From contig JBIQKU010000001.1 of NCBI GenBank assembly GCA_044506225.1, positions 1-58,290 on the forward strand: DNA of 58,290 nt, in the 5' to 3' direction. The translations under genes and the position numbers were made by a program. Positions within the stretch are counted from its first letter, which is position 1, and every line of letters begins with the position of its first letter. Source of the stretch: Rubrivivax sp. (GTDB lineage: Bacteria; Pseudomonadota; Gammaproteobacteria; Burkholderiales; Burkholderiaceae_C). Under the pieces are notes generated by a model. It had not been told where the DNA came from, searched no databases, and was given only the letters and a program-made list of their open reading frames with translations. Shown one piece after another: positions 9,721 to 48,199 of this stretch.

Positions 9721-9816
9721 GCACGGCCCTTCGCGCGACGCGTGGCGCGACCACGCAGAAGCCCTGGGGACGGTGCGGGTGTGGTGCCGCGTGCCGCTGT
9801 CGATGACACTGCCCGC

Positions 9817-20168: not shown

Positions 20169-21380
20169 ATGATCGGCATCAGCATCACGGAAAAGGCATG
20201 GGACGGGGTGCGCCCGTCCAGCGTCAAGAAGACCGGACTGAGCGAAGCCATCCGCAGCTTCATCAAGGTGTCGCCGAAGGGGACGCCGGGCACGCCCAAG
20301 GCCTTCGACGATGTCACGCAGGCCATCATGGCGTTGTCGGCGGCCATCGCGCAGACCGAGGCCGCGGTCAAGAAGGCCACGGACGACAAGAAGGGCGCGG
20401 CGGCCAAGCTCAAGGCCTGGAAACAGGAATGCGCGAAGGCCGCTGGCGCACTGGCAGACCAGCGCGTGCAGCTCGGCGTGCTCAAGGCCAGTGTCGAGGC
20501 CGACAACCTGCTCAAGACCAGGACCGCCGAGGTGGACGAGGCCATCCGCGCCGGCAAGGCGCTGGTGTCGGACATCGGCTCGGGCAAGCTCACCGATGCC
20601 AAGAAGATCGCGGTCGGGCTGCAGGACCTGCGCAATGTGATGCGCGACGGCATCAAGGTCAGCCAGAAGGACGGCTTTGCCGAATACATCCGCACGCAGC
20701 CCGAGGTGCGCGCCTGGGGTGTCGACCCGAAGAAGGTGCCGCTGCCGCCGAACGCCAAGCTGATCAAGGCGAAGCTGCCGCTGCTCGAGAAGGTGGCCGA
20801 ACAGGCACGCATCGCGGCCACCCAGGCGCTGGAGCAGTCGTCGAAGTCGCGCACCGGCAGCGCCGCCGACCTCGCCAAGGGATTGGTGGCCGACTACCGC
20901 AACCTCGGCAAGACCATCAAGTCACGCATCAGCCAGGCGAAGCAGTTCAGCGCCAATGCCAAAGGGCTGGGCGACAAGTTCAAGGCGGTCATCGCCAAGA
21001 ACCCGCCGCACGACAAGCTGCTGGGCGAGCTGACGAAGTTCCACGCCATGGTGTTGAAGTACGAGGACATCTGCCTGAAGGACATCGCCCGCGGACGCGT
21101 GAGCTCGGGCGACATCCAGGCCAAGCGCATCAAGCTGCGCAATTCGCTCGACAAGGACTCGAAGGAGTACCGCGAGTTCGAGGCCATCGCCAGCCAGGAG
21201 TGGAACCTCATCATGGTGACCCACCGGGAGGTTTCCGAAGAGCTCGGCAAGGCCTACCAGCAGGTGGACCGTGTGGCCCGATTGGTCGGCGCGATGTCGC
21301 CGGCCGCGAAGACGGCAGCGGCAAGCCAGGAGAAGAAGTTCGCGGCCGAGCGCCAGGCGCTGCGAAACAAGTACCAGTAG
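20169..21380 (+). CDS. Hypothetical Lys/Ala-rich all-helical (coiled-coil-like) protein, no signal peptide
   Basis: ORF 20169..21380 (403 aa). AAGGAAG before the ATG and coding-type GC3. No motif recognised. Confidence 0.65.
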   Translation: MIGISITEKAWDGVRPSSVKKTGLSEAIRSFIKVSPKGTPGTPKAFDDVTQAIMALSAAIAQTEAAVKKATDDKKGAAAKLKAWKQECAKAAGALADQRVQLGVLKASVEADNLLKTRTAEVDEAIRAGKALVSDIGSGKLTDAKKIAVGLQDLRNVMRDGIKVSQKDGFAEYIRTQPEVRAWGVDPKKVPLPPNAKLIKAKLPLLEKVAEQARIAATQALEQSSKSRTGSAADLAKGLVADYRNLGKTIKSRISQAKQFSANAKGLGDKFKAVIAKNPPHDKLLGELTKFHAMVLKYEDICLKDIARGRVSSGDIQAKRIKLRNSLDKDSKEYREFEAIASQEWNLIMVTHREVSEELGKAYQQVDRVARLVGAMSPAAKTAAASQEKKFAAERQALRNKYQ

Positions 21381-22002: not shown

Positions 22003-22354
22003 CGGTGTTCTCCTTCGGGGGCAAGGCCGACCGTACCCACGCTCAGCCTGCAGACGTGTCGCAGAGCGTACGCAAGCGCAACCGCTTGCACGATGCGCCA
22101 ATGTCTCGTACGCATCTCCGGTGTTGCCGGCGATGACGATCAGGCGCCAGATGGGTGCCCTCTTGGCGCGCTTCCCGTGATCTGCACCAAATCGACGGCG
22201 GAACAAGCGTCTGTCAGCGACGTGAAGGCGGAAAGCTCTCATGCTCCACGTCGCGCTGACGGGCCAGCATACCCACGAGAGTTGAAGCAGATCAGAAGCG
22301 GATCGGCGGCTCAGGGCCGGGCCACAGCTGGGCTGGGGAGGGGCCACAAAGCAG

Positions 22355-22378
22355 AACGCCCACTGTGAAGTGGGCGTT
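22355..22378. other. GC-rich stem-loop (9-bp stem, 6-nt loop) in an orphan intergenic region
   Basis: AACGCCCAC tgtgaa GTGGGCGTT. No gene ends next to it on either strand and there is no clear U-tract. Confidence 0.5.
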
Positions 22379-22436
22379 TGCTGCTGGCCGAAGCCGTATT
22401 GGTTGGTTGCGGGGGCTGGATGGTTATGAGAACAAC

Positions 22437-22470
22437 CCGGATCCATGTATGCTCGTCGACATAAATCCGG
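22437..22470. other. Extended imperfect inverted repeat in the lower-GC junction upstream of the giant recombinase gene
   Basis: CCGGAT-cc-ATGT-atgctcgtcg-ACAT-aa-ATCCGG. A second small hairpin, AACGT-gatctt-ACGTT, lies at about 22474-22489. Confidence 0.5.
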
Positions 22471-22586
22471 CTTAAACGTGATCTTACGTTGAAATCCAGG
22501 GGATTCGGCGAGCTCTCAAGCACGACGGCGAAGCCCGATTTGCGCCGCACGCGGCCGGTTGCTGACAGTAAACCGCTCCGCCGCAC

Positions 22587-25500
22587 ATGGCGCACAACGC
22601 TCTCCCAGCGACCTTTGGTCAACACGCGCTGCACTCCACCGATGTTCTTATCGGTTGGGCTTCGGCGCGCGGCGTAGCCGCTCCGGCGCAACTTCTCATC
22701 GATCTCCTCGGCGCGCGAGACGCTCGCGTCGACTACCTCGGAACGATCGTCGAGCGACTCGCTTCCGTAGCACCGGTGCTCAGCGCGTGGTCCGAGGAAG
22801 CCGTGGAGTTGCACGGCCTGGCCCGGTTGGCGAACGCAATTCGCGCCGACGGCGCGGACCTTGCCTCTCTTCCGCGCCGCCGGACGTTCAACCCGGTGAT
22901 GCAGGACTTTCGAGGCCAGGCCGAAACGCACTACCTATATATGTGCTGGGTGGTCCACGGCCCGGTGGGGGAGCGCGCGCTCGGGTGGATCAACGTCGTG
23001 CGGGCCTGGCTGCTCGTGCAGGCGCTGATGCGCACCGACCTTGGCGTTTGGCTTGACGACCTCCAGAAGGAGGCCTGCCTGAGGGTTCGAGAGGCGTGCG
23101 AGGAAACTCAGGACGTTCGATGGCTCGCAGCCATCGAACAGTTGCAGACGCCAAGCGACGACTGGTATCGCCTGACGCAGCATCTCCACGGCGCGGTCGA
23201 CCGCTTCATCCAAGCGCCCGGCGAAAAGGGATACGCCCAGCGCCGGAATTGGCTACTTGTTCTCAGGCGCATCGCCGCCGGCGATTCAAGGCCACAAGAG
23301 AGCGATCGGACCGACCAAGGGGCAGCACCGGAGGAATCGCGCGACCTGCCCCAGCTTGATGTATCGGCGCTGGCCGGCGGACAAATCGACGACCTCGTAC
23401 TTGTCGAGCAGGCCGTTGGCACAGGAAGCTGGGACGACGCTGAGCAAGACGACTTCGATGGCGCCGACGTCGTCGCCATCGATCCAACGGAGGCGCCGGC
23501 ACTGGCGCATGAAACCGCCAGGCAGATCCAGTTGCTGTCAGGCGCCGACGTCCGGCTTCTCGTGTGGGACTGGTATGTCCTGACGCCACCGGAGCAGGAC
23601 GCGCTGCAGCGCCTGATTCGTCGTTCGTTGGGCGCCACCGAACCCTCGGGCAGGGTGATCGCGGCACTGGTGGATCTCGCGCAGTGTCTCGGTCGTTCCC
23701 TCGAGATGGTGGGCCGCGTGCGCCTGCTTCGAGGCGAAGCTGACCCCATCGGCGAAGAGTGGGCAGTCGATATCGACAGCGGCAGTGTGCGGCGTGCATG
23801 CCCTCGTCGCCCCGCGCATTGGCGGCCCGGCGACCGCGAGCGTCCCTTCATCAACGAGTTCGCAGACGTTCTGACCCTTCGGCTGCCACCCGGTACAGCA
23901 GATGTCTTGCGCGACGCCGGGGCCCGAGCACCAGACAGCGCAACCGTCGATCAACTCTGGCAGGCGCTGCACCAGGGTCCACTGGAGAGCCAATTTCGCA
24001 AGTGGTGCGCTCAGGAGCCGTCACTTCGACGTGTCACGCAGGGCATGCTGTCGCAGACCTTGGCGCGAGCGTTCTTTGAGCGCAGCGGCGATCACGTGGC
24101 GGCCCGACTTCTTGCCTCGGCTCCGCGCAGCGGCCTGCCGGCGTCGACCGCGTATACGGCATACCTGGCATCCGACCTGGCGCCGGGTCTGCCTGCGGTT
24201 ACCGCGCCTTGGAGTGCGTTGAACGTGGCCGGGGGACTGATGGATCCCGCTGGCGACTTCCTCAAACGGGGATTCGCACGTGCGCACCAGGATCTCGTTT
24301 CACGGAGCAGCACGGCAGACTTCGTCGGCTTCCACAACGCGGTGACGCACTACTGGGATGCCGTGTGGCGGGCGGCGACAGGTATCCGGCCTTTCACCCA
24401 GCGCTGGACGGACATCAACCTAATCGACCCGACGCACGGCTTCGTGGTCGTGGATGACAAGTCCTCCCTTCAGGATGCACGAACCCGTTTGGTCCCGCTG
24501 GTCGGCGGCCTGTGGCAACGGTTTGAACGCTCGTACATCCAACAGCACCTGCCCGTGTTTCACCGTTGGCTGGAAGCGAACGGCGTACGTGGCGACCTAT
24601 CACTTTCCACGGGAGCGGAACTCCAAGCGCAGCAGCGCCCTTTGATGTTTGCACTGGTCGCGGAGCGCGGCTCCGTAAGCGCTGTACCCATCGGGTCGCA
24701 CACGGCGCCGATGCCGCCCGAATCGCCGTTGCCGCCCAACGTCTATCGGCATCGCGTGCGCACCTCGCTGCACCGGCAAGGGGTCGATCCGGAAGTGATT
24801 GACTCGATCCTGGGACACCAGGATGGCGCGACGGCCACGCATGGCGACTATTCCATGCGTGTGTGGCGTGATGACATGCAGGCGGCCTCCGGAGCCCTGC
24901 GAGACATCTTCGACGAGCTGGAGATTCGGGATCCGCCGTTGTATTTCGGCGAGCTGACGCCACTGTCGCCATCGAGCTGCCCAACGTACCAGCCACTCGA
25001 AGTGCCGTCGGCGCGCACGGCTCAACGCTCCGGCCCATCATGGCGTTTGCGGCTGCGTGCGGCACGCACGGCCCGGCGAATCATCACCCAGGCGCTCGCG
25101 CCAGCAGTCGATGGCGTACCGCCTAGCCAGTCGGCACTGGCAAAGCAGCTTGCCGATCTGGATGCCGACGCATTGAACCGGCTGTCAGCCCGACTGGCCA
25201 CCTCACCGAAGGGCACGCCCACGATCCTAAGTCCGTTGCGCTATGCCTATTTTCTGCGGCTGTGCGATCGCGCTTGGCGGACTTCCGACAAGCGACCTTC
25301 GCTGCGTCGCCGATTTCTATGGCGGCCCCGCGACGCATCACCCTATCGCGCCGAGGCGGCCAAGGCTCTAAGCGTCAGAGCAGCGCTGAGGAAGGAATTG
25401 GAGTCGGCGCTGGAGGGGCTGACTCCCTCGAAACTGACACGAACGGATGCGCTGTGGCTGGCGCTATTTGATCTGAGCCTGTGCAGCGGTGTCGCTGACG

Positions 25501-28049
25501 CTGTGTTGCAGGCGGTCCTGATCGAGGGTAAGGCGATACGGCTCATTGAGCTCGAAGAGCACGCCTATCTCGAGTGGAACTCGGAGGGGCAGGTCGACAC
25601 GGCCCGAAGCCCCATCCAGCGATTGCGCATCACCTCCTGGTCCGCCCACGCCCTTCACAACCTGATGCAGGCACAGCGGCGGCATGTTGACTGGCAGTCG
25701 ATTCCGCCGCAGCGCTTCGACGTCCTTGCGCAGATCCTTCGAGACCACGGTCTGCTCGATGGCGTGGGTCTGCGCGCAGTGCTTGCGGCCTTGAACACCG
25801 TGGTCGATCAGTGCAATGTGATCGAGCTGCCAGGAGCGATCGCTGCGCATCTCGCCGGGCGTGTGCGCAGCGCGTCGTTGCACTGGGGGGACAAGCTGGC
25901 CCTGCGTCGCGGGGATCGCTTTGATGCCAGCACCCTGATGCGCGCGACCTCAGTGGACCGCACAGAGGTGACAGACATCAGCGGGACCGTCTTGGCCGAC
26001 GATGCAAGTAACGAGCTCCAAGAGCGACCAACCGTTGGATTGCCTGTTGCAACCACGGTCGCCAGAACTCGGGCCCAGATCGATGTCAGAGATCTGTTCA
26101 GGCAGGTGCGGGCGGAACTCGCCCTGGCAGAACACGAGCGTCAAGCTGCCGGTGCGAAGGCAACGATTCGAAGGAGCGCAGGTAGAAGAATCAACGCACT
26201 GGCCTCAGCGACTGGCTGTAGCGCCGTGACATCGTTGATCCACTGGTGCGCAAGTCTTCTGGTTCGACCACGGGGACACGGTCTGCTGGCGATTTCCACG
26301 GTCAGACGCTACTTCGCAGCCCTTTCGCCGCGGTTTGAAGCTGCGTCGTACGCGGCCGATCTGCTGTCCATGGACGACGAAGAGATCGCGCAGCTGTACG
26401 CCAGCATGATGGACCTGCCACCACAAAGCGCAGCCGACTACGCCTACGCTCGCCTGCGTGATTTTCATGGGTTTTGTGAGCAGCGGTTCGCACTTCCTGA
26501 CATCGACTGGAGTGAGGTGGCACCGGAGAAGACCGCCAAGCTGGCCGCGCCGGGCTACGTGCATGAACGCATGTACCGGTGCCTGTTGATCGAGATTCGA
26601 CGCGCTGCGCCATTGCCGACCGCGCATTCGCGTACCGCGGCACAGGCACTCGCGGTCCTGGGCTACCGCTTCGGGCTGCGCGGCGCCGAGGCCTGCGGCC
26701 TGGAGATCGATGACTGCCACTTCGACGCGACGCCGCCGTGGCTGAGCGTCCAGAAGAATCGGCTGCGCGAACTGAAATCGCCCGCCGCCCGACGCACCGT
26801 TCCGCTCTTGACGCGCCTGCTTCCGGTTGAACGGACCATCCTGGGCCGCATGCTGAACGCGGCGCAGCAAGCGACGGCGGGCTTACCGAACGCACCGAAG
26901 TATCTGTTCCTCGATCCCCAAGGCGCCGGCGAATTGCTGGACCGTGGCTTGATCAAACGCACGGTCAACGCGCTGATCAAGGACGTAACCGGGCAGCGGC
27001 ATCTCTCCGTGCACCATTTGCGTCATAGCTTCGCATGCAATGTGTGGGACGGCATTACGGCCGCGCGAGTCCTTGCTGCTGACGAAGAGGGCTCAACCCG
27101 AGCCGCTACGCTGCTGGGCCAGCGCCAACAACTCGGTGCAACGCGGCGAGCACCCTGGGCCTTGGCGCGCCTCATGGGGCATGCCCACCCACGCACCACG
27201 CTGTTCAGTTACGTCCACACGCTTGGCGAAGCCGCCGAACGGCTCGCCTTTAAAGGTCCGACGCGTGATTGGAGACTCCCCTCCCACGCTTTGCTGCAAG
27301 TGGGCCGGCTGCAGCCTCAGCCCAGGCCTCGCTCCCAAGGTACGGCCGCGCAGGACATGCTGAGCGGTGCGCAGGCGTTCTCCATGCTGATGGCACTCGA
27401 TCGCGGCACGCATGTCGAGCGTCTGCCGTCACGGTATCCGGTCACCTTGCAGGTGGCACGCCGGATCGAGCGAATACGCCAGGAGGTGGTCCGCCGCTGC
27501 GCCCGCACGGACGAGATCGCCGAAGTCGGTCTGAGCCCCCGGGCCGCGGCCTATCTCGTGCACCGTGGCATTCTTTCGCACACGACTCGGTCACGCGGGC
27601 CAGCGCTGCGTGCGGCCATCGACAAACTCTTCACCGCGCAGAATCGCGCACGGCTCGCAGAAGTTCGGATCACCGAGGAAGAGTTTCGCGGCCTGTTTGG
27701 CTCAAAGCGAAACATCTCGATGTTTCGTGCCGCGCAGTTCCAACTGCTGCGCCTGGTCCAGGAAGTGATCGGCATCCCGCAGGCGCAGTTGCGGCTGGCT
27801 TGGCGGCTGAACGCCAAAGTCAAGCGAGGCGCGGTAGCGTCAGGGTGGCTGACGCCTTCCGCACCCGACGAGCACGACGAGCGCGGTGTCGAGTTCGACC
27901 GTGTCCGATTCGACGGCAACCCGGTTGAGCATCGCGTGGTCTTCAGCCTGCAGCGAACTGAGCAGGGACCGATTCGGAATCGGTGGGAACTGATTGCAGT
28001 CTTGCTGTCGACGATATCGCTCCTGACGTTCGAGGCGGAGCGTGATTGA
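22587..28049 (+). CDS. Giant (1820 aa) protein with two complete tyrosine-recombinase catalytic domains in tandem
   Basis: ORF 22587..28049; a TAA at 22569 excludes an earlier start. Domain 1: R601 (ATGIRP), K625, H722-x-x-R725 (YRHRVR), H744 (LGH), Y755 (GDYS). Domain 2: R1365 (GLRGAE), K1397, H1476-x-x-R1479 (HHLRH), H1532 (MGH), Y1542 (FSYVH). Confidence 0.8.
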   Translation: MAHNALPATFGQHALHSTDVLIGWASARGVAAPAQLLIDLLGARDARVDYLGTIVERLASVAPVLSAWSEEAVELHGLARLANAIRADGADLASLPRRRTFNPVMQDFRGQAETHYLYMCWVVHGPVGERALGWINVVRAWLLVQALMRTDLGVWLDDLQKEACLRVREACEETQDVRWLAAIEQLQTPSDDWYRLTQHLHGAVDRFIQAPGEKGYAQRRNWLLVLRRIAAGDSRPQESDRTDQGAAPEESRDLPQLDVSALAGGQIDDLVLVEQAVGTGSWDDAEQDDFDGADVVAIDPTEAPALAHETARQIQLLSGADVRLLVWDWYVLTPPEQDALQRLIRRSLGATEPSGRVIAALVDLAQCLGRSLEMVGRVRLLRGEADPIGEEWAVDIDSGSVRRACPRRPAHWRPGDRERPFINEFADVLTLRLPPGTADVLRDAGARAPDSATVDQLWQALHQGPLESQFRKWCAQEPSLRRVTQGMLSQTLARAFFERSGDHVAARLLASAPRSGLPASTAYTAYLASDLAPGLPAVTAPWSALNVAGGLMDPAGDFLKRGFARAHQDLVSRSSTADFVGFHNAVTHYWDAVWRAATGIRPFTQRWTDINLIDPTHGFVVVDDKSSLQDARTRLVPLVGGLWQRFERSYIQQHLPVFHRWLEANGVRGDLSLSTGAELQAQQRPLMFALVAERGSVSAVPIGSHTAPMPPESPLPPNVYRHRVRTSLHRQGVDPEVIDSILGHQDGATATHGDYSMRVWRDDMQAASGALRDIFDELEIRDPPLYFGELTPLSPSSCPTYQPLEVPSARTAQRSGPSWRLRLRAARTARRIITQALAPAVDGVPPSQSALAKQLADLDADALNRLSARLATSPKGTPTILSPLRYAYFLRLCDRAWRTSDKRPSLRRRFLWRPRDASPYRAEAAKALSVRAALRKELESALEGLTPSKLTRTDALWLALFDLSLCSGVADAVLQAVLIEGKAIRLIELEEHAYLEWNSEGQVDTARSPIQRLRITSWSAHALHNLMQAQRRHVDWQSIPPQRFDVLAQILRDHGLLDGVGLRAVLAALNTVVDQCNVIELPGAIAAHLAGRVRSASLHWGDKLALRRGDRFDASTLMRATSVDRTEVTDISGTVLADDASNELQERPTVGLPVATTVARTRAQIDVRDLFRQVRAELALAEHERQAAGAKATIRRSAGRRINALASATGCSAVTSLIHWCASLLVRPRGHGLLAISTVRRYFAALSPRFEAASYAADLLSMDDEEIAQLYASMMDLPPQSAADYAYARLRDFHGFCEQRFALPDIDWSEVAPEKTAKLAAPGYVHERMYRCLLIEIRRAAPLPTAHSRTAAQALAVLGYRFGLRGAEACGLEIDDCHFDATPPWLSVQKNRLRELKSPAARRTVPLLTRLLPVERTILGRMLNAAQQATAGLPNAPKYLFLDPQGAGELLDRGLIKRTVNALIKDVTGQRHLSVHHLRHSFACNVWDGITAARVLAADEEGSTRAATLLGQRQQLGATRRAPWALARLMGHAHPRTTLFSYVHTLGEAAERLAFKGPTRDWRLPSHALLQVGRLQPQPRPRSQGTAAQDMLSGAQAFSMLMALDRGTHVERLPSRYPVTLQVARRIERIRQEVVRRCARTDEIAEVGLSPRAAAYLVHRGILSHTTRSRGPALRAAIDKLFTAQNRARLAEVRITEEEFRGLFGSKRNISMFRAAQFQLLRLVQEVIGIPQAQLRLAWRLNAKVKRGAVASGWLTPSAPDEHDERGVEFDRVRFDGNPVEHRVVFSLQRTEQGPIRNRWELIAVLLSTISLLTFEAERD

Positions 28050-29004
28050 ACGCCGTCTGACCGTGCTCCCACGCTTCGTGGTCTGGACTTTGTCGTTGAA
28101 TCCTCCAGCCGATGAGTGTGTCTTTGATTTTGACGCTACCCATTCCTTCTTCGACGACACGCCGAACTCTGAATCGGATCTTCACGGAAGGTGGCTGCGA
28201 GAGCAGACTCAAAAGTTTTGCCGGCACCTCTCCATTGGGGCCACTCTTGTACATCATCAGCATCTTCGCTTCCTCGCCGCTATCTGCCTGATCCTTCGCA
28301 CAAAGCTCGACCTGAGAGGGTCGTCGATTCAGTGCATTGACATGTCCGACGAGTCTGCAGATCGTTGACTTCGTCGGCATGCGCTGAGGAATTGGGATGA
28401 TCGAATCGAATTTGTAGCGCTCGCCCCCCGCGGAAATGGAAATCTGCTTCAGCGTCCGCTTTCCACCGACGCGCTTCAGAAGCTCCTCAGCCATGACCTC
28501 GCGCGCAACCTCAGCCCGGTCATGCACTTCCTCCGCAGCGCGGTCCATCGGTGCGGTGCTGCCCGCATCGAGGCGCATGGGCGCGGTCGGAGTTGTCGCC
28601 ATGACCCCCGCAACACGGACAACCTCGGGCATCAATTTGACCAACTCGGCGGTGCAAAAGTCGCCAATGGCTTTTGAATCAAGGTCGAGCTCGGACGAAT
28701 CTCGGACTTTAACTGCCAACGAGACAGCGCCCAGTTTCGGGTTTTCCGGCAACTCACTGATAACCAGTTTCGTCTCGAACTGGTCGGGCCTCAGATAAAA
28801 TGCAGCGCAGAGCGCGGCGATCACTGCCTCGACCAACTGCTGCTCCGTTGCGAGCTTTATGTTGGATCTCCCAAGCTCTACCTGCCCTACGCCAAATTCA
28901 ACGCGAATGCGCTCCGTTTCAGTGAGAAAGATGATGTGCTCAGATGTCGCACTCTGACGCGCGCTGATAGTACTTGCCACGATGGTCTCTCCCCTGTCGA
29001 TCAT
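27943..29004 (-). CDS. Hypothetical protein (353 aa), low-GC module gene 2
   Basis: ORF 27943..29004. ATG overlaps the stop of the upstream gene (ATGA at 29001-29004). The 3' end overlaps the convergent recombinase ORF by 107 nt. Local GC is about 50 %. Confidence 0.6.
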   Translation of the reverse strand: MIDRGETIVASTISARQSATSEHIIFLTETERIRVEFGVGQVELGRSNIKLATEQQLVEAVIAALCAAFYLRPDQFETKLVISELPENPKLGAVSLAVKVRDSSELDLDSKAIGDFCTAELVKLMPEVVRVAGVMATTPTAPMRLDAGSTAPMDRAAEEVHDRAEVAREVMAEELLKRVGGKRTLKQISISAGGERYKFDSIIPIPQRMPTKSTICRLVGHVNALNRRPSQVELCAKDQADSGEEAKMLMMYKSGPNGEVPAKLLSLLSQPPSVKIRFRVRRVVEEGMGSVKIKDTLIGWRIQRQSPDHEAWEHGQTAFNHAPPRTSGAISSTARLQSVPTDSESVPAQFAAG

Positions 29005-30199: not shown

Positions 30200-30499
30200 A
30201 TGATCGACATGAAGACCGCCATCCTTCCCCAAGTCCGAGTGGAGCCTCAGTTGCGCGCCGACCTCGAGTCCGTCCTGCGCGAGGGCGAATCACTGTCGGA
30301 GTTTCTCGAGTCCACCGTGCGCAAGGCTGTGGAGTACCGACGGATGCAGGCCGAGTTCCATGCCCGTGCTGAGGAGGCATGGGACGACTACAAGCGGACC
30401 GGCGTCTCCCACTCCGCGCAAGACGTGGTCGCGGAGCTTCGCGCCAAGACCGATGCGCGACGCAAGCAACTGCAGGGCAAGCGTCGGCCCACCGCATGA
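30200..30499 (+). CDS. Ribbon-helix-helix type II antitoxin (ParD-like)
   Basis: In-frame ATG 30200 (or 30209) in ORF 30080..30499. LPQVRVEPQLRADLESVLREGESLSEFLESTVRKAVEY fits a beta-alpha-alpha RHH. The stop overlaps the toxin ATG. Confidence 0.75.
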   Translation: MIDMKTAILPQVRVEPQLRADLESVLREGESLSEFLESTVRKAVEYRRMQAEFHARAEEAWDDYKRTGVSHSAQDVVAELRAKTDARRKQLQGKRRPTA

Positions 30500-30813
30500 G
30501 CTTCGAGGTCGCGTTCAGTCCCCAGGCAAGATTCGACCTCATTCGCCTGCACGACTACCTGCTGGATAGGGCCGAGTACGTTGAAGATCTCGAACTCGCC
30601 GACCGTGCGATCGAGGCTGTCGTGGCGGCAGTCCGGTCACTGGCGACGACGCCGTTCCTTTTTCGCAAGGCTGGCGGCTCACACGGACCCTTGCGCCGTG
30701 AGCTGGTCGTGCCGTTCGGGAGCACCGGGTACGTGGTGGCATACGAGATTGCCAAGCCCGGTCTGGTCATCATCCTCGCCGTACGTCACCAGCGCGAAGA
30801 AGACAACCACTGA
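30496..30813 (+). CDS. parE: ParE/RelE family type II toxin
   Basis: ATG 30496 in ORF 30379..30813 (105 aa). FSPQARFDLIRLHDYL ... VVILAVRHQRE is the typical ParE pattern. ATGA overlap with the antitoxin. Confidence 0.8.
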   Translation: MSFEVAFSPQARFDLIRLHDYLLDRAEYVEDLELADRAIEAVVAAVRSLATTPFLFRKAGGSHGPLRRELVVPFGSTGYVVAYEIAKPGLVIILAVRHQREEDNH

Positions 30814-30869: not shown

Positions 30870-31376
30870 TCAGGACGTGAAGCCGAGCACTTCGTCCAAC
30901 TTGCGCAACTCGTCGTGCGTCAGCCCGACACGGTGATCGCATACCACAAGCTCGCGAGTAAACGGCCGATACAGCCATGGCTGGTCGTCCAAAGCGGCCC
31001 ACCGCCGCCACGGCGCTTCGCTCCGCCGAAGCCAGGCCTTCACTTCGGCGTGTCGCGCATGCCGAGTCGGCGGTGGCTCTCCGCCGAACTGCTCCCAGTT
31101 GTCGCGCATGAATCCCGGGGTGACGCCGATCACGCGCGGCTGAAGGTCGGACGCGAAGAACGAAGCAAGTTCGCCCACAGTGCGTTGCGTCCGCCAGGTC
31201 GATGAGATCACGACGTCGATGCCCGGCCGTCGGCGAAGCCAATCCTGCAGGATGTCCACACGACAGAAGAGCTGGTCGGCCGTGCACCCGCAGGGATGGA
31301 GCACTCCGTCGAAATCCAGAAACAACACAGCGTCCGTTTCGACGGCGGTATGTCTGTCGTGCTCCATTGCGCCCAT
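30870..31376 (-). CDS. Small stand-alone HAD-superfamily phosphatase-like protein (copy 1)
   Basis: ORF 30870..31376 (168 aa). Motif I LFLDFDGVLHP, motif II VISSTW, motif IV ALDD. Confidence 0.75.
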   Translation of the reverse strand: MGAMEHDRHTAVETDAVLFLDFDGVLHPCGCTADQLFCRVDILQDWLRRRPGIDVVISSTWRTQRTVGELASFFASDLQPRVIGVTPGFMRDNWEQFGGEPPPTRHARHAEVKAWLRRSEAPWRRWAALDDQPWLYRPFTRELVVCDHRVGLTHDELRKLDEVLGFTS

Positions 31377-31699
31377 CAGCGTGCTCCATCGGCGTGCAGC
31401 GTGACGGCAATGGTTCCATCCACCAGTCGGACCACCCGAGCGTTGAACTCCCTTTCATCGAAGCCGACCCGCAAGCCGTACGGCGCTCGCTCGGTCAGCC
31501 ATCGCATATCTTTCTGCAAATCGTCCTCGTGGGCCACGACGCCGAACCGTTCCGGAAGCGTCTCGACGACGAAGCGGCCCAGCAGCGCTGAGTCGAACAC
31601 GCTGACACTCAGATGCACCATCTGACGTTCGTGGTCGATCTCCAGTGTCATCGCCTGGTCCAGCAGGCATGACATCGAGTGCTTTACATAGACCTGCAT
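31376..31699 (-). CDS. Hypothetical protein (107 aa)
   Basis: ORF 31376..31732 trimmed to MQVYVKH (ATG 31699, GAGGAA 5 nt upstream). Its stop shares a base with the next ATG (TGATG). Confidence 0.55.
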   Translation of the reverse strand: MQVYVKHSMSCLLDQAMTLEIDHERQMVHLSVSVFDSALLGRFVVETLPERFGVVAHEDDLQKDMRWLTERAPYGLRVGFDEREFNARVVRLVDGTIAVTLHADGAR

Positions 31700-31835
31700 T
31701 GATTCCTCACTACTGCTTTGCGGCCGCTGCATGTCGCGCCGCGGCCTTGAGATCGCACGCCATCACGTCTTCACCGGCGCGCCCGCGGCCGGCCACGGCA
31801 CCTCGACCACCCATCCCGCGTTGAACCGGAGATTC

Positions 31836-32621
31836 TCAAAGGCTCCGTCGCACCCGATGGCCACGAGGATTGCTGATCACGCGGCGGTCTCCGCGTCGGT
31901 AGTCGAACGGCGCATGCGTATGTCCATGCACCCACAACGTCGCGCCGCCAAAGAACTCTCCCGGTAGTTCGCTGACAAATGCCGGCGTCAACGAGTCGCC
32001 GGCGTACCGCTGCGCCACGGAGCCGCCGGAGGGCGCGTGATGCGTGACGACCACTGTCGGCCCATCGAACGGCTCAGCCATCGTCCGCCGCAACCAGTCG
32101 CGGTCGATCCAGTTCATCGCCAATGTGTCCTCGGCGCGCAGCAGTCGGCGAAACTCTTTCTTTTGGGTCTGGCGCTTCGTCGGCGCCTGAAGCTCGATGA
32201 GCTGGAAGTCGTTCATGTACCGATTGGCGTCTGTGAGCGCTCGGCTCACGTCGGACTCCATCCAGCCATCGGGCCGCCGAATCGGCAACTGGAAATCGGT
32301 CCAGAGCGTGCAGCCCAGAAGCCGCGCGCCGCCGATGACGATGGCGCTTCGCTCGAGCACGTGGACTTTGCTGTCCACCGCGGCGTTCTTCATCTGCTGG
32401 AGTTCGCTGGCCATCTCGCAGCCATAGAACTCGTGGTTGCCGGCGACGAGCAGCACCGGCTTCCCGCCGAAGGTCGATGCGCACTTGGCCCAATGCACCG
32501 CCTTGCGCCCCGGCGAATGAATGTCGCCGGCCAGCACAACGGCGTCGTACTGAAGCCCCGGCGGCAGCGTCAGGGACGTGCCGAGTTCGAGATGCAGGTC
32601 GGAGAGAACGAGCACCTTCAT
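31836..32621 (-). CDS. Calcineurin-like metallophosphoesterase (copy A)
   Basis: ORF 31836..32621 (261 aa). LSDLHLE, LAGDIH, AGNHEF, VTHHAP, VHGHTH motifs. Confidence 0.85.
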   Translation of the reverse strand: MKVLVLSDLHLELGTSLTLPPGLQYDAVVLAGDIHSPGRKAVHWAKCASTFGGKPVLLVAGNHEFYGCEMASELQQMKNAAVDSKVHVLERSAIVIGGARLLGCTLWTDFQLPIRRPDGWMESDVSRALTDANRYMNDFQLIELQAPTKRQTQKKEFRRLLRAEDTLAMNWIDRDWLRRTMAEPFDGPTVVVTHHAPSGGSVAQRYAGDSLTPAFVSELPGEFFGGATLWVHGHTHAPFDYRRGDRRVISNPRGHRVRRSL

Positions 32622-33394
32622 TCGCGGCTCCGGCGCTGACGCCCATGCTTGCGCGCTTCGTCGAGCTCGCCCGGCACCACGATTTCAGCGTTGCCGTCAG
32701 CGTCAACGGCTGTCACGCCGCGCAGGCCCACGCCGTGCGACTTGAAGCCCTGTCGGCCCCAATGGTCGGAAGAATCGATGGCATCGTGATGATGGCCATG
32801 AACCACCACCCTCGCGCCCATGCTTTGCGTCAGGGTGTCGAGCAGGTCGAAGCCGTTGGGGTGATACCCGGGAGCCTCATGCGTGATGAGCACATCGGCC
32901 CGCATGTCGGCCAGTCGGTCGACCGTCTCGGGATAGATGGTTCCCCAATGCTTGCGCGGCGGCCCATTGCCGCGCCAACGATTCTGGCGTGGCGTAGCGG
33001 CGGCGTGCGCTCTCATTGTTCGGAAGGCAGGCGCACCCGCACGCGCGGCCGACGGGCTCGGGTACCAGACAGTCTCCCGGAAGACACCCCCGAGGCCAGC
33101 CAGGCGCTGACCATTGAGAAGCTCGGCGACGCGCCCATGGACGCTGCGCTCCGCAAGGTCGCTGGCCCAGAGATTCATCCACAGCTGGTCGCTGTCCGCG
33201 TCGTGATTGCCGTGAATGAAATAGATCGGTACCGCCTGTTCGATGAGCGGCGCGAGCTCGAGATGCAGCGCTCGCTGCGGTTCCATGTCGCCGAGCAGGA
33301 CCACGGCGCTCGCCTTGGTGCGTTCGGTGGCGTCGATGATGTGCCGGAACTGTGCGTGCGGGTCACCGCAGTAGAGGACCGGGCCGGAGTTCAT
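32618..33394 (-). CDS. Calcineurin-like metallophosphoesterase (copy B)
   Basis: ORF 32618..33595 trimmed to MNSGPVLYCGDPH (ATG 33394). GDPH, LLGDME, IHGNHD, ITHEAP, VHGHHH motifs. The stop overlaps the next ATG (ATGA). Confidence 0.8.
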   Translation of the reverse strand: MNSGPVLYCGDPHAQFRHIIDATERTKASAVVLLGDMEPQRALHLELAPLIEQAVPIYFIHGNHDADSDQLWMNLWASDLAERSVHGRVAELLNGQRLAGLGGVFRETVWYPSPSAARAGAPAFRTMRAHAAATPRQNRWRGNGPPRKHWGTIYPETVDRLADMRADVLITHEAPGYHPNGFDLLDTLTQSMGARVVVHGHHHDAIDSSDHWGRQGFKSHGVGLRGVTAVDADGNAEIVVPGELDEARKHGRQRRSRE

Positions 33395-33521
33395 CGTGCG
33401 CACCTGGGCCACCGGAGGTTCGGGATCCTGTCCGAGAGCTTGATGGCGTACGGCGCAATGAGCGCGACGGACGCCGTTTCCCCCGCGCTGCGCGGAGTGG
33501 CCGTCGCTCCTGTGCCCATCC

Positions 33522-34013
33522 TCATGAGGACTCCTTGAACCGCTCAAGGGCGACGGCCAAAGCAGCCCGCACTGGCGGATGCGCGATGCCCTCAACGGGA
33601 TGGGAAAGCACTACGTGGCCATGCGCGTGTGTCCACCCTTCGTCCACGTCGTCAACGGCCAGCCACTGCGAAGGCTGCCGGCGCTGGACGTCGCCGAGGA
33701 CCTGGGCGCCGCGCGGCAGTTGCTCGAACCAGGCACGGTTCATTTCGCTGTGGTAGGTGGCGCCAACGCAGCGGGCGGCCAAGGACGCGGGCAGAAACTG
33801 GACGGTTCGAGCGTAGCGGTAGTGGCGAACCCAACTTGTCGATAGCACGACACGGACCGATGGATACGGATCCAGCAGGTCGGCGAGGAGGTCGGCGTTC
33901 TCGAACAGCGCATGTCCGGAAGGCGAGCGGACATACGCGCTGCCACCGGGCCGGACCCACACGTCTTCGGGGTGCAGTACCCCGTCGAAGTCGAGATAGA
34001 GGATCTGATTCAT
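33522..34013 (-). CDS. Small stand-alone HAD-superfamily phosphatase-like protein (copy 2)
   Basis: ORF 33522..34013 (163 aa). LYLDFDGVLHP, VLSTSW, AVDDV. Paralogous to 30870..31376. Confidence 0.75.
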   Translation of the reverse strand: MNQILYLDFDGVLHPEDVWVRPGGSAYVRSPSGHALFENADLLADLLDPYPSVRVVLSTSWVRHYRYARTVQFLPASLAARCVGATYHSEMNRAWFEQLPRGAQVLGDVQRRQPSQWLAVDDVDEGWTHAHGHVVLSHPVEGIAHPPVRAALAVALERFKESS

Positions 34014-34189: not shown

Positions 34190-36079
<1,890 letters not shown>

Positions 36080-36101
36080 GGCGGCCTCGTTCAGGTTGTC
36101 T

Positions 36102-37097
36102 TCACGCATTGACGTCGACGACGACGCGCCCTCGCACTTGGCCCGCCAACAGGCTGGGAGCCACGTCAATGGCTTCAGCCAGACCGATCGGTTCCTGCGT
36201 GATGAGGTCCAGCAGACTTGTGTCGATCTCCGCTGCCAGTGATGCCCAGGCCTCCAGCCGCTCGGGCAGCGGGCACATGACGCTGTCGATGCCTGCAAGC
36301 GTGACCCCACGCAGGATGAACGGCGCGACAGAGCCGGGAAAGTCCATCCCCGCGGCCAATCCGCATGCCGCCACGACTCCGCGATAGCGCATCGAAGCGC
36401 ACAGGTTCGCCAGCACGTGGCTGCCGGCACTGTCGATGGCGCCCGACCAGCGCTCCTTGGCGAGCGGTTTGCCCACTTCTGTGAACGGCTGTCGATCGAT
36501 GACCTCCGCCGCACCCAGCCGTTGCAGATACGCGGCCTCGGCCGGACGGCCCGTGAGGGCCACGACGCGATAGCCACGCCTCGCCAGCAGCATCGTCGCC
36601 ACGCTCCCGACACCGCCCGCCGCCCCGCTGACGGCTATCTCGCCATCGCCCGGCATCACGCCATGCCGCCTCAGCGCCATGACGCACAGCATGGCGGTGT
36701 AGCCCGCGGTGCCCAGTGCCATGGCGTGGCGGGGAGACAGCCCCGCAGGAAGCGGCACCAGCCAATCGCCGCGAACCCGTGCTCGTTGGGCCAGGCCGCC
36801 CCAATGGGTCTCGCCCACACCCCAGCCGTTGAGCACCACGAGCTGACCCGGCTTGAACCCGGGATGGCTGCTGCCTTCAACCTCGCCGACGAAATCGATG
36901 CCGGGGACCATCGGGTAACGGCGGACCACCGGCGACCGACCGGTGATTGCCAGACCGTCCTTGAAGTTCAAGGTGGAGTAGGCAACCCGAACGGTGACGT
37001 CACCTTCAGGCAGCACCATGTCGGCGAGATCGCGACATGAGACGTGGCGGCCGTCGACGGCTTGTTCGATGAGCAGCGCTTTGAACGTGGAGCTCAT
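36102..37097 (-). CDS. acuI: YhdH/AcuI-type acrylyl-CoA reductase (MDR-family quinone oxidoreductase)
   Basis: Last 331 codons of ORF 36102..37451 (MSSTFKALL...). [18 protein letters not shown] and the size are typical of YhdH/AcuI. Confidence 0.8.
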
Positions 37098-37267
37098 CGG
37101 TTGACCGCCTGAAGACGAATGGACGCGGCGATCGCCGTGGTGATGATCATCGGCGCACCGACCCATACCGTGGGCTCCAAGAAGGTGCTGCGACGCGCAT
37201 GCATCCGCACAGCGGTGTGTTCGTATTCTTCGCCGAGCGTCTCGCCCGGACCGTGATTGCTGCTCAT
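37094..37267 (-). CDS. Candidate small (57 aa) protein with a C-terminal hydrophobic helix, translationally coupled to acuI
   Basis: Read by hand; it falls below the ORF-track cutoff. ATG 37267 lies 7 nt after [63 protein letters not shown]. Its TGA overlaps the acuI ATG (ATGA). Confidence 0.4.
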
Positions 37268-37390
37268 GCTGATCTCCTGACTGCGCCGTGGCGCATCGAG
37301 GTCGAGACGGAATCGCCTGCCCTCGAGTCGTTGGATGGCACCGGGGGCTCGCTCGACCCACTCTCACCGAACTGGATCGGCACCCCAACA

Positions 37391-37406
37391 GATACCGCTC
37401 GGTATC
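37391..37406. promoter_or_regulatory. Inverted repeat GATACCG-ct-CGGTATC upstream of the small ORF-acuI-prpE genes (candidate TetR operator)
   Basis: 7-bp arms with a 2-nt spacer. A near-identical motif occurs at 38206-38221. Confidence 0.5.
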
Positions 37407-37512
37407 ATGATGAGTGCCGAGTCGCTTGTCAAGCGACTGCACGCGCAGCATGCCCCCGCACGCTACTCAGTTCGGGTAGCAGCGGAGCCCAAGAATCAGC
37501 AGAAGGGGAAGG

Positions 37513-38160
37513 TCAGGTCTGTCCGGCCGGTGCGCGAGCGCTGCGTCGGGCACGCAGCGGCTTCGCAGAACCCGGCGCCGCGGCGGACGCAGCGCCGAGG
37601 ATGGTCGATGCAATCGAACGCACCATGCGATCCGCCTCGGGAATGCTGCCGTTCTGCGCCGTGACCTGGGCACCTTCGAGGAGAAAGGTCAGCTGGGCCG
37701 AAGCAAGATGAGGCTGGGCAATGCCCGCCTGGTGACACAGGCGCTCGATGCGCAGCGCTTGACGATGTTTGTGAGCCTCGATGAGCTGGCGCGCTGGGTG
37801 ATTTCGGTCGGGAAGCTCCGCGAGCGAATTGACGAACGGACAACCCCGGTGCGACATCCCACGCAACGACTGCGCGATGAACTCGACCCAGCCGTTCAAT
37901 TGCGCACGTGCGTCATCCGGGAAGCGCGCTTCCAGTGCATCGAAGATGCCGCTGTACTCCGCGATCACGCCTTTCAGCCACTCGGCAACGAGCGCGTCCT
38001 TGGAGGCGAAATGACGGTAGATCGCCATCTTCGTCGTTTCCGCTTCGGCCGCGATGGTCTCAACACCAACTCCACGAATGCCTTCGTCATGAAACAGCCG
38101 GGCCGCGGTCCGCAGGATGCGATCGCGTGGGGGCATGCCTTCGGGATGTTTGCGCTTCAT
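37513..38160 (-). CDS. TetR/AcrR family transcriptional regulator
   Basis: ORF 37513..38160 (215 aa). HTH: RILRTAARLFHDEGIRGVGVETIAAEAETTKMAIYRHFASKDAL. Confidence 0.9.
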   Translation of the reverse strand: MKRKHPEGMPPRDRILRTAARLFHDEGIRGVGVETIAAEAETTKMAIYRHFASKDALVAEWLKGVIAEYSGIFDALEARFPDDARAQLNGWVEFIAQSLRGMSHRGCPFVNSLAELPDRNHPARQLIEAHKHRQALRIERLCHQAGIAQPHLASAQLTFLLEGAQVTAQNGSIPEADRMVRSIASTILGAASAAAPGSAKPLRARRSARAPAGQT

Positions 38161-38205
38161 GGAGACCTGCAGAAAAAGCTTGACAAAGGAAAGTCGACAC
38201 TACAC

Positions 38206-38221
38206 GATACCGTTCGGTACC
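38206..38221. promoter_or_regulatory. Inverted repeat GATACCG-tt-CGGTACC in the divergent tetR/amidase promoter region (candidate TetR operator)
   Basis: Lies between tetR start 38160 and amidase ATG 38287, about 20 nt downstream of a TTGACA hexamer at 38180-38185. Confidence 0.5.
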
Positions 38222-38286
38222 ATTCCCGGGCGATGACCGGCCCGCCAACCCCGGCCAACGGCCGGGCATTCGAAACCGGAGGCGAT

Positions 38287-39732: not shown

Positions 39733-39938
39733 GCTGCGACGGCCGGTCGTCCTGACCGGCCGCGCCGCCATGACATCACAGGCTCTGCCGCATCCGGCGG
39801 CGCGGAGTGGCCGTGCAGGTCGAAATTGCGCTCGACGGCCTGCTGTATCCCGTATGCCTGAACGCGCGTCTCGGCACGTCCGGTAGGTGCTCGAAACGAC
39901 GTGACATCGAAGCATCGAAAGCCCGCCGGAGCACACGT

Positions 39939-40568: not shown

Positions 40569-40570
40569 GG

Positions 40571-41725: not shown

Positions 41726-41786
41726 GGTGCAACATGAGCGCAGACGCGAGGCGTCGTTGCTCTTCTCCAGAAACGGGGTTGAAAAG

Positions 41787-43436: not shown

Positions 43437-43446
43437 TGCGGTCACG

Positions 43447-44483: not shown

Positions 44484-44551
44484 GTTTCCTCCTTGCTGCC
44501 TGGAAGCCTCGGAGACGGCGCGCCTCGAATGCATGAGGCGCGCTGCCTTGA

Positions 44552-45589: not shown

Positions 45590-45619
45590 GTCGATCTCCT
45601 ATGGGTGAAAGTTGCAGAT

Positions 45620-46309: not shown

Positions 46310-46321
46310 CGCGGCGGCTCC

Positions 46322-48165: not shown

Positions 48166-48199
48166 AGGTCTTGCCCGTTCAGTTCGCAGGGGCTGGTTG

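What the first reader, a model, noticed from the sequence alone, without database searches (positions are those of the whole stretch)
22587..28049. 1820-aa single polypeptide with two complete tyrosine-recombinase catalytic domains
One uninterrupted ORF contains two full R-K-H-x-x-R-H-Y catalytic sets. Domain 1 is R601/K625/H722/R725/H744/Y755 (nt ~24330-24851). Domain 2 is R1365/K1397/H1476/R1479/H1532/Y1542 (nt ~26270-27212) and is preceded by a SAM-like core-binding segment. The remaining ~1100 residues (a 560-aa N-terminal region with an acidic linker, a 450-aa middle region and a 280-aa tail) match nothing I recognise. Ordinary tyrosine recombinases are 300-450 aa with one domain. Multi-recombinase elements that I know of (Tn554-like, recombinase-in-trio, GInt-type islands) encode them as separate genes. 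A covalently fused hetero-pair would be an unusual recombination machine and could define a new type of mobile element, with this gene at its left end.
Basis: partly seen in the sequence, partly recalled or inferred. Interest (0 to 1): 0.8.

Follow-up and report, generated by a model that had tools for sequence, protein, structure and literature searches.

The report
Giant fused two-module tyrosine integrase
A real 1820-residue gene fuses a normal tyrosine integrase to a second, degenerate integrase-like module that keeps the phosphate-binding residues but not a conserved catalytic tyrosine; it lies at the edge of DNA inserted into an initiator-tRNA gene and belongs to a large, unstudied protein family.

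Summary
The ORF 22587..28049 (+) is real. It is full length in more than 100 homologues of 1750-1950 aa, and every segment is under purifying selection. Module 2 (aa ~1216-1560) is a canonical tyrosine recombinase: it passes the Pfam cut-off, and R1365/K1397/H1476/R1479/H1532/Y1542 are conserved family-wide. Module 1 (aa ~296-782) has a recombinase/topoisomerase-IB-like fold but is very divergent. R601, K625, R721 and H744 are invariant in 126 members. Y755 is not conserved, being F or M even in close relatives, and 29% of members have no Tyr at 752 or 755. So "two complete catalytic sets" is only partly right. Acinetobacter and Aeromonas encode the two modules as adjacent genes (752+1060 aa, 790+1120 aa), so this protein is a natural single-chain version of a two-subunit recombinase. 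About 160 nt upstream, on the other strand, lies a remnant of initiator tRNA-fMet followed by that tRNA's native terminator and flank. An intact tRNA with the same flank exists in a metagenome contig. The gene is therefore the first gene of an island of at least 36 kb inserted in tRNA-fMet. I found no paper describing the family.

The parts
22587..28049 (+). Giant recombinase gene, 1820 aa
   Evidence: ORF and translation. Full-length homologues. Ka/Ks 0.08-0.36 in all segments.
22587..23471 (+). N-terminal region, aa 1-295: helical, ends in an acidic linker, no family match
   Evidence: No Pfam hit. Conserved within the family (A7). Not modelled.
23472..24932 (+). Module 1, aa 296-782: helical DNA-binding-like part plus a divergent recombinase-fold domain. 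R601, K625, R634, R721 and H744 are invariant, N718 sits at the His-I position, and H752/Y755 are variable.
   Evidence: Pfam 19.9 bits. XerD/XerA are the only PDB sequence hits. AF2 model pLDDT 86.5. Foldseek top hits are Cre, XerA, XerH, topo IB and integrases, but E>=0.03. Conservation counts.
24933..26231 (+). Linker (aa 783-830), middle region (aa 831-1120: helices plus a three-stranded sheet, conserved R985, E996, R1012 and the QCNxIELPG motif), and a second disordered linker (aa 1121-1215)
   Evidence: AF2 secondary structure. Conserved columns. Corresponds to the N-terminal part of the separate B proteins.
26232..27266 (+). Module 2, aa 1216-1560: SAM-like core-binding segment plus a canonical tyrosine-recombinase catalytic domain (R1365, K1397, H1476, R1479, H1532, Y1542)
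   Evidence: PF00589 E 3.5e-13. Weak XerD/XerC-type NCBIfam matches over aa 1237-1486. PHROG integrase 2.8e-14. XerA in PDB 6e-5. Residues conserved in 126 members.
27267..28046 (+). C-terminal region, aa 1561-1820, with a weak winged-helix (AbiEi_4-like) match at aa 1637-1663
   Evidence: Pfam E 3e-4, below the cut-off.
22422..22430 (-). CTCATAACC, the anticodon loop of tRNA-fMet: probable crossover core at the island junction
   Evidence: Exact match to tRNA-fMet nt 33-41. Present at the same place upstream of the giant gene in L001-L006, L012 and L013, with a TTCATAATC variant in L007.
22404..22421 (-). Remnant of the tRNA-fMet 3' end (nt 60-77: T-loop end, acceptor strand, CCA). tRNA nt 42-59 are missing.
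   Evidence: 17 of 18 match to E. coli tRNA-fMet. Identical to the 3' end of the intact tRNA in L011.
22242..22403 (-). Native downstream flank of the host tRNA-fMet gene: terminator hairpin 22355-22378, then TTTGTGGCCC-type short repeats
   Evidence: Terminator scan and fold, z = -4.7. 79% identical over 184 nt to the flank of an intact tRNA-fMet in L011 and 75% to L004.
22431..22586 (.). Conserved non-coding stretch between the core and the start codon: candidate promoter/operator or arm-type sites
   Evidence: DNA blocks are conserved even with L003, whose protein is only 36% identical. No sigma-70 consensus found.
27943..29004 (-). Convergent 353-aa gene of unknown function, conserved next to the giant gene in one clade
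   Evidence: Homologues in L002 (E 4e-65), L006 (2e-29) and L003 (4e-7). Absent in L004, L005, L007 and L008. No Pfam or PADLOC hit.

Best explanation
The gene encodes a single-chain, two-module tyrosine integrase that serves a genomic island inserted in the initiator tRNA (tRNA-fMet) gene.

Module 2 is the working recombinase, with Tyr1542 as the nucleophile. Module 1 is a diverged recombinase-fold partner. It is homologous to a separately encoded 'A' subunit in Gammaproteobacteria. It keeps the phosphate-binding residues (R601, K625, R721, H744) but has no conserved nucleophile of its own.

One polypeptide would occupy both half-sites of a core site built on the anticodon stem-loop (core CTCATAA). 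Two polypeptides would form the four-domain synapse that four separate monomers make in ordinary systems. By inference, strand exchange is either carried by module 2 alone, giving a Holliday junction finished by the host (as in XerC-only or XerD-only pathways), or module 2 donates its tyrosine to the module 1 pocket.

Shown here: the fusion is real and conserved; module 2 is canonical; module 1 has a recombinase-like fold and motifs, and its Tyr is not conserved; split homologues exist; the tRNA-fMet junction exists. Inferred: which module cuts, the stoichiometry, and that this protein made the junction.
For: - Gene reality.
- Module 2: Pfam above the cut-off, and the catalytic hexad conserved in 126 members.
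- Module 1, sequence and fold. The only PDB sequence hits are XerD/XerA, at box II and in the correct register. The RxVPL patch after the Lys aligns with module 2. In the high-confidence AF2 model, K625 is on a beta hairpin, R721 is in a helix and H744 follows a helix. The top ~45 PDB and most top viral structural neighbours are tyrosine recombinases or topo IB.
- Module 1, conservation. R601, K625, R634, R721 and H744 are invariant in 106-126 sequences. Tyr755 is replaced by F or M in close relatives and absent in 29% of members.
- Split homologues in the same order: aciA/aerA match aa ~300-780 (prob 96.8-98.7%) and aciB/aerB match aa ~1060-1550 (prob 99.4-99.9%).
- Junction. The tRNA-fMet remnant and the CTCATAACC core are upstream of the gene in most loci, and a tRNA-Arg(CCG)-like remnant occupies that place in L008. 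An intact tRNA-fMet with the same flank is in L011.
- Composition. GC3 drops from ~0.9 to 0.6-0.85 right of the junction.
- Cargo in other loci is typical of islands: CBASS, Cas9, MmeI R-M, TA pairs, ars genes.
Against: - No structural or profile match of module 1 reaches formal significance: Foldseek E>=0.012, Pfam below the cut-off, and the hhalign match of D1 to D2 has only 3% probability.
- The other island end, an intact tRNA-fMet, is not in the window. Excision or integration is therefore not demonstrated.
- A classical P4-type integrase at 55030-56394 could in principle own the island.
- At the junction, the host tRNA 3' half lacks nt 42-59 or more in most loci. A simple conservative crossover in the anticodon loop does not predict this.
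- Invariant pocket residues in module 1 argue against a purely architectural role, so which chemistry it performs is open.
Confidence: 0.6

Rival explanations
1. Both modules are fully active recombinase domains. This would be a covalent XerC/XerD-like hetero-pair in which each module cuts one strand pair, with Y755 as the nucleophile of module 1.
For: In the window protein and its four closest relatives, R601, K625, R721, H744 and Y755 are all present and invariant. The Acinetobacter A subunit also has R, K, N, R, H and Y at these columns. The pocket residues are invariant family-wide.
Against: Position 755 is F in P0007 and P0011 and M in P0016, at 28-38% identity. It is H in the Aeromonas A subunit. 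It is Y in only 49 of 126 members, and 36 of 126 have no Tyr at 752 or 755. His-I is Asn. Y755 lies in a loop before the last helix in the model.
Confidence: 0.2
2. Module 1 is a dead, purely DNA-binding or architectural pseudo-recombinase, like Tfp of SE elements or GinC of GInts. Only module 2 does any chemistry, and the element moves by single-strand-pair exchange.
For: The Tyr is not conserved. Tfp and GinC set a precedent for a recombinase fold without catalytic residues inside multi-recombinase operons (PMC10214605).
Against: Tfp and GinC lack the RHRY residues altogether. Here R601, K625, R634, R721 and H744 are 100% conserved across sequences only ~22% identical. That is hard to explain without a role at a scissile phosphate.
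Confidence: 0.15
3. The giant gene is not the island's integrase. It is cargo or a domesticated or decaying gene that happens to lie by the tRNA remnant, and the P4-type integrase at 55030-56394 made the insertion.
For: A complete P4-type integrase with an AlpA-like gene is present at the far end of the low-GC region. A similar module lies 7 kb from the giant gene in L012.
Against: The remnant is coupled to the giant gene in most independent loci with unrelated cargo, and most of them lack any P4-type integrase within 10 kb. L008 has a different tRNA remnant in the same place. There is no tRNA next to the P4-type integrase in the window. Purifying selection acts along the whole gene.
Confidence: 0.05

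Closest known systems
XerC/XerD heterotetrameric tyrosine recombination
   Same: Two different recombinase-fold subunits share one core site. Module 2 gives its best (weak) NCBIfam and PDB matches to XerD, XerC and XerA. Xer systems also have pathways in which only one partner cuts and the host resolves the junction (established knowledge).
   Different: Scores are far below the Xer equivalog cut-offs (45 against 330 bits). The partners here are covalently fused and about five times larger in total. Module 1 lacks a conserved Tyr. The context is a tRNA-inserted island, not dif.
SE (intA-tfp-intB-srap) and GInt (ginABCD) multi-recombinase integrative elements
   Same: Several recombinase-fold proteins, one of them degenerate, act together at the end of an integrative element in Gamma- and Betaproteobacteria (PMC10214605). 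SRAP genes lie near the giant gene in L004 and L005.
   Different: Those are three separate recombinase-fold genes plus srap. Tfp and GinC lack all RHRY residues, whereas module 1 here keeps R, K, R and H. No SRAP gene was found in the scanned genes near the window gene. SE and GInt elements do not target tRNA anticodon loops according to the paper's description of their termini.
Classical tRNA-targeting genomic-island integrases (P4-like), anticodon-loop sublocation
   Same: The integrase gene is ~160 nt from an att core that coincides with a tRNA anticodon loop. The displaced tRNA 3' part and host terminator are on the outer side. The cargo is variable: defence, resistance and catabolic genes.
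   Different: Those integrases are ~400-450 aa with one catalytic domain and an arm-binding domain. The window's own example at 55030-56394 shows Arm-DNA-bind_2 + SAM + PF00589. The giant protein has none of the arm-binding families, and its gene lies at the end distal to the intact tRNA.
Flp-type trans-assembled active site
   Same: A phosphate-activating pocket (R, K/H, R, H/W) can be completed by a tyrosine from a neighbouring subunit (established knowledge). Module 1 shows exactly the pattern 'pocket conserved, Tyr not'.
   Different: No sequence relationship was tested, and trans donation here is purely inferred.

Membership tests
Tyrosine recombinase superfamily (Pfam PF00589), module 2 | HMM score above the gathering cut-off | tested here: met
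   50.1 bits against 27.1, E 3.5e-13, aa 1352-1485. 38.9 bits on the isolated segment.
Tyrosine recombinase superfamily, module 2 | Catalytic R-K-H-R-H/W-Y residues present and conserved | tested here: met
   R1365, K1397, H1476 (119 H, 7 Y), R1479, H1532 and Y1542 in 126 of 126 members.
Tyrosine recombinase superfamily, module 1 | HMM score above the gathering cut-off | tested here: not met
   19.9 bits against 27.1, covering only box II, aa 713-750.
Tyrosine recombinase superfamily, module 1 | Catalytic fold: helices, a three-stranded sheet with Lys on the hairpin, an HxxR helix, and GH | tested here: inconclusive
   The AF2 model (pLDDT 86.5) has the expected order of elements. The structural neighbours are almost only recombinases and topo IB, but E>=0.03-0.15 and TM 0.24-0.5.
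Tyrosine recombinase superfamily, module 1 | Conserved nucleophilic tyrosine | tested here: not met
   Y755 in 49 of 126 and Y752 in 64 of 126 members, with neither in 36 of 126. F or M at 755 in close relatives.
XerC/XerD (NCBIfam TIGR02224/TIGR02225) | Equivalog score above the cut-off | tested here: not met
   43-45 bits against 330-335.
SE / GInt elements | Operon of three recombinase-fold genes followed by an SRAP (srap/ginD) gene | tested here: not met
   There is a single gene here. The scanned genes near it in the window have no SRAP or integrase hit. Homology to IntA, Tfp or IntB could not be tested because those sequences were not at hand.
RIT / Tn554-type elements | Two or three adjacent separate tyrosine-recombinase genes | tested here: not met
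   No further PF00589 gene lies next to the giant gene.
tRNA-integrating genomic island | Partial tRNA copy at one end, next to host flank | tested here: met
tRNA-integrating genomic island | Intact tRNA gene (direct repeat) at the other end | tested here: not met
   No tRNA and no second copy of the motifs in the 58 kb window. The end may lie beyond the window.
tRNA-integrating genomic island | Excision to a circle and an empty site | not testable with these tools
   Needs reads or PCR. L011 shows an unoccupied tRNA-fMet with the same flank, but in another sample.

The most novel reading that the evidence does not exclude
Module 1 is a live active-site pocket that has given up its own tyrosine. 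The nucleophile would come in trans from module 2 (Flp-like), or from a relocated residue such as the invariant Y523. One fused polypeptide would then carry out an enforced, ordered two-step strand exchange with a single tyrosine. That would be a natural single-chain heterodimeric recombinase with built-in half-of-the-sites control.
Probability: 0.2. Interest if true: 0.85.

Novelty: new variant of a known kind. Interest (0 to 1): 0.62.

Why it matters
Tyrosine recombinases are textbook homotetramers, or two-protein pairs such as XerC/XerD. A widespread natural fusion of an active and a diverged subunit has not been described in the papers I could search. Here it comprises hundreds of sequence clusters, mostly in Betaproteobacteria as far as sources are named, with split cousins in Acinetobacter, Aeromonas and Vibrio.

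It offers three things:
- A model for how subunit asymmetry and the order of strand exchange are hard-wired.
- A template for single-chain designer recombinases with asymmetric target sites.
- A marker gene for a class of tRNA-fMet-targeting islands that carry defence systems (CBASS, Cas9, R-M) and catabolic or resistance cargo. These genes are currently annotated only as 'integrase' or 'hypothetical'.

Tried and rejected
- Direct profile-profile comparison of module 1 with module 2, on shallow and on deep alignments. Only the 20-residue RxVPL patch aligns, at 3% probability or less.
- First AF2 run with a 5-sequence alignment. It gave pLDDT 59 and was usable only as a hint.
- Pattern-based scans of GTDB genomes and JGI metagenomes with the protein alignment, and with the 403-aa left neighbour. 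All found nothing. I therefore could not get the host species, an empty site in a sister genome, or the other island end.
- Second word-indexed homologue search with a 106-sequence profile. It returned essentially the same four proteins.
- Search for terminal direct or inverted repeats within the 6-9 kb contigs and within window 22-32 kb. Only chance-level matches appeared, so I dropped the idea of a small 7-9 kb transposon bounded by the contig ends. The shared contig start is explained by a 30-nt (k-1) overlap with the repeated tRNA 3' end and flank.
- Rfam scan of 20-32 kb for an RNA gene upstream. Nothing was found.
- PADLOC found nothing for the giant gene and its downstream neighbours; PHROGs matched the giant gene only as an integrase (module 2) and gave one weak hit of unknown function for the 353-aa neighbour.
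- BIM elements. Their partner is an SMC-like protein, so they are not this family.
Full report
**Observation**

The window has an uninterrupted ORF at 22587..28049 (+), 1820 aa. The window is about 70% G+C up to ~20 kb and 57-68% G+C from there on. Third-position G+C falls from about 0.9 in the left-hand genes to 0.6-0.86 in genes from 22.6 kb onward.

**The gene is real and the fusion is the rule**

- A word-indexed search found four relatives at 99, 64, 42 and 36% identity. All are full length, 1787-1954 aa, and both residue sets are invariant among them.
- An exhaustive profile search with aa 1-1110 found 937 cluster representatives at E<=1e-3 and 279 at E<=1e-30. The best 150 are almost all 1750-1950 aa.
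- Window versus L002 gives Ka/Ks of 0.08-0.36 in each of nine segments, linkers included.
- A missed stop or frameshift, or a pseudogene, is therefore excluded.
- Source names are only 'integrase', 'site-specific recombinase XerD', 'tyrosine-type recombinase/integrase' or 'hypothetical'. The taxa named are Betaproteobacteria, Burkholderiales and Zoogloea.
- I found no paper on the family.

**Module 2 (aa ~1216-1560) is a canonical tyrosine recombinase**

- PF00589 scores 50 bits against a cut-off of 27.
- There are weak XerD/XerC-type matches that include the SAM-like part.
- PHROG 'integrase' matches at 2.8e-14, and XerA in the PDB at 6e-5.
- R1365, K1397, H1476, R1479, H1532 and Y1542 are conserved in 126 of 126 full-length members. 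The one exception is that H1476 is Tyr in 7.

**Module 1 (aa ~296-782) is recombinase-like but degenerate**

Sequence and profile evidence:
- Pfam sees only box II, at 19.9 bits, below the cut-off.
- A profile of aa 300-800 hits only XerD and XerA in the PDB (E 0.04). That alignment puts N718 on XerD H244 and R721 on R247.
- hhalign of module 1 against module 2 aligns only the RxVPL patch that follows the catalytic Lys in both.

Conservation across 126 members:
- R601, K625, R634, R721 and H744 are invariant.
- N718 is 90% conserved.
- R725 is Arg in only 17.
- Position 755 is Tyr in 49, position 752 is Tyr in 64, and 36 members have Tyr at neither.

Even relatives at 28-38% identity have F or M at 755.

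Structure:
- With a 43-sequence alignment, AlphaFold gives a confident model of aa 296-1215 (pLDDT 86.5, pTM 0.83).
- In it, K625 is on a beta hairpin, R721 is in a helix, H744 comes just after a helix, and Y755 is in the loop before the last helix.
- Its structural neighbours in the PDB and BFVD are almost exclusively Cre, XerA, XerH, Flp, phage integrases and type IB topoisomerases. However, E-values stay at 0.03-0.15 or worse (the earlier low-confidence model is).

I conclude that module 1 has the recombinase/topo IB fold with an intact phosphate-binding pocket. It has Asn at His-I and no conserved nucleophile.

**Split homologues**

tblastn against plasmids found Acinetobacter, Aeromonas, Vibrio and Sphingobium 'site-specific integrases' matching aa ~1050-1570.
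- In Acinetobacter ursingii pRIVM_C010761_4, the 1060-aa integrase is preceded by a 752-aa hypothetical protein.
- In the Aeromonas caviae KAM479 record, a 790-aa ORF overlaps the start of an 1120-aa ORF.

hhalign against the family profile gave these matches:

| Separate protein | Residues | Giant-protein residues | Probability | E-value |
|---|---|---|---|---|
| aciA | 291-749 | 333-781 | 96.8% | 2e-10 |
| aerA | 323-775 | 299-774 | 98.7% | 2e-16 |
| aerB | 276-733 | 1060-1549 | 99.9% | 6e-32 |
| aciB | 432-806 | 1210-1551 | 99.4% | 4e-21 |

So the giant protein equals A+B of a two-gene system, in the same order. The joint falls at the poorly conserved linker, aa ~783-830. aciA keeps R, K, N, R, H and Y. 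aerA has F and H at 752 and 755.

**Genomic setting**

Reading the minus strand away from the start codon:
- 22430..22422 is CTCATAACC, the tRNA-fMet anticodon loop.
- 22421..22404 matches tRNA-fMet nt 60-77.
- 22378..22355 is a terminator hairpin.

A metagenome contig, L011, has an intact tRNA-fMet followed by the same flank. L011 513-692 equals window 22421..22242 at 79% identity, and nothing upstream of position 513 matches the window. The host/insert junction is therefore at 22421|22422.

The same arrangement occurs upstream of giant genes with unrelated cargo:
- L001-L006, L012 and L013 have CTCATAACC, and L007 has a TTCATAATC variant.
- L003 has a complete tRNA 3' half.
- L008 (Zoogloea) instead has a tRNA-Arg(CCG)-like 3' remnant beside an intact tRNA-Asn/Gly/Lys cluster.

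The contigs L001 and L002 both stop exactly 30 nt after GCCCCCGCAACCA begins. That is what a k=31 assembler would do at a repeat shared with the real tRNA gene (the k value is my assumption about Logan assemblies).

No tRNA and no second copy of the motifs is in the window. The island is therefore at least 36 kb, or its far end is rearranged. Cargo in other loci includes CBASS, Cas9-Cas1-Cas2, an MmeI-type R-M enzyme, TA pairs and ars genes.

**Mechanism**

Shown:
- This is a fused A-B recombinase with one canonical and one Tyr-less but pocket-conserving module.
- It sits ~160 nt from a tRNA anticodon-loop junction.

Inferred:
- One chain covers both half-sites of the core, and two chains make the synapse.
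- Y1542 performs cleavage.
- Module 1 either only positions and activates DNA, or receives a tyrosine in trans.

The full invariance of R601, K625, R721 and H744 at ~22% overall identity argues against a purely structural role.

**Comparison with known systems**

- The system works like a hard-wired XerC/XerD pair. It also resembles the SE and GInt sets, which combine active recombinases with a degenerate recombinase-fold protein (PMC10214605).
- It fails the membership tests for Xer, SE/GInt, RIT and Tn554 (gene organisation) and BIM.
- As an island it behaves like ordinary tRNA-targeting islands, except for the enzyme.

**Unexplained**

In most loci the host tRNA part at the junction lacks nt ~42-59 (window, L002, L004), nt 42-64 (L001, L012) or more (L005, L006, L013). 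The left break is always right after CTCATAACC(C), and identical junction types recur in distant lineages. Simple decay, recombinase-made deletions between the similar anticodon-loop and T-loop sequences (CTCATAACC and TTCAAATCC), or selection to lock the island could all explain it. I could not discriminate among these.

**Verdict**

The finding is real and worth follow-up, but the headline needs correcting. The protein has one complete catalytic set plus one degenerate recombinase module. It is the fused form of a two-gene system, and it lies at the end of a tRNA-fMet-inserted island.

Noticed in passing
window 55030-56965: A second, classical P4-type integrase (454 aa: Arm-DNA-bind_2 + SAM + PF00589) on the minus strand. 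An AlpA-like 94-aa ORF (56354-56638, -) lies upstream, with a divergent XRE-type HTH gene (56771-56965, +). No tRNA is nearby. A similar int/alpA/HTH module lies 7 kb from the giant gene in L012. This may indicate tandem or nested islands at this locus.
   Followed up: partly
window 22404-22430; L001, L002, L004, L012 junctions: The displaced tRNA-fMet 3' half lacks its variable loop and T-arm. The deletion always starts right after CTCATAACC, and the same junction types recur in distant lineages. Only L003 keeps the whole 3' half.
   Followed up: partly
window 22242-22354; L004 ~9744-9800; L005, L012 flanks; L011 560-630: Downstream of the tRNA-fMet terminator there are 3-4 short direct repeats (TGGCCC or TGTGCCC) about 11 nt apart. 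They are also present beside the unoccupied tRNA in L011, so they belong to the host flank. Their function is unknown.
   Followed up: partly
window 30210-30813: A ribbon-helix-helix antitoxin-like ORF (30210-30499) overlaps a ParE/RelE-like toxin ORF (30496-30813). This call rests on reading the translations only. Contig L001 ends inside the antitoxin ORF at 30265.
   Followed up: no
window 30870-33595: A HAD_SAK_2 domain protein ('Swiss Army Knife' RNA-repair HAD, E 4e-29) lies beside two calcineurin-like phosphoesterases. This may be an RNA-repair or defence cluster inside the island.
   Followed up: no
window 34190-50303: Catabolic cargo: acetyl-CoA-synthetase-like enzyme, amidase, AmiR/AmiC-type regulator pair, CbbQ/NorQ AAA plus a VWA protein, aliphatic amidase (CN_hydrolase), and branched-chain-type ABC transporter genes.
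   Followed up: no
giant protein aa 523 (window 24153-24155): Y523, in the motif GLPxxxAY, is invariant in 106 family members. It lies N-terminal of the module 1 pocket residues, so it is a candidate relocated nucleophile.
   Followed up: no
L004 and L005 (GCA_006365075.1): One genome carries two divergent paralogues of the giant gene (1882 and 1966 aa). Both are flanked by IS3-type insertion sequences and have SRAP (YedK-like) genes nearby. L004 also has an imuA-imuB-dnaE2-like cassette.
   Followed up: no
window 58150-58290: The minus-strand end of the window reads like the C-terminus of an IS5/IS1182-type transposase (…[19 protein letters not shown]…). This rests on reading the sequence only.
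   Followed up: no
window 20169-21380: A 403-aa Lys-rich helical protein with host-like GC3 (0.92). It has no Pfam or PHROG match, only one weak PADLOC hit (PD-T4-6, E 0.0035), and no relative found in the GTDB species representatives.
   Followed up: partly
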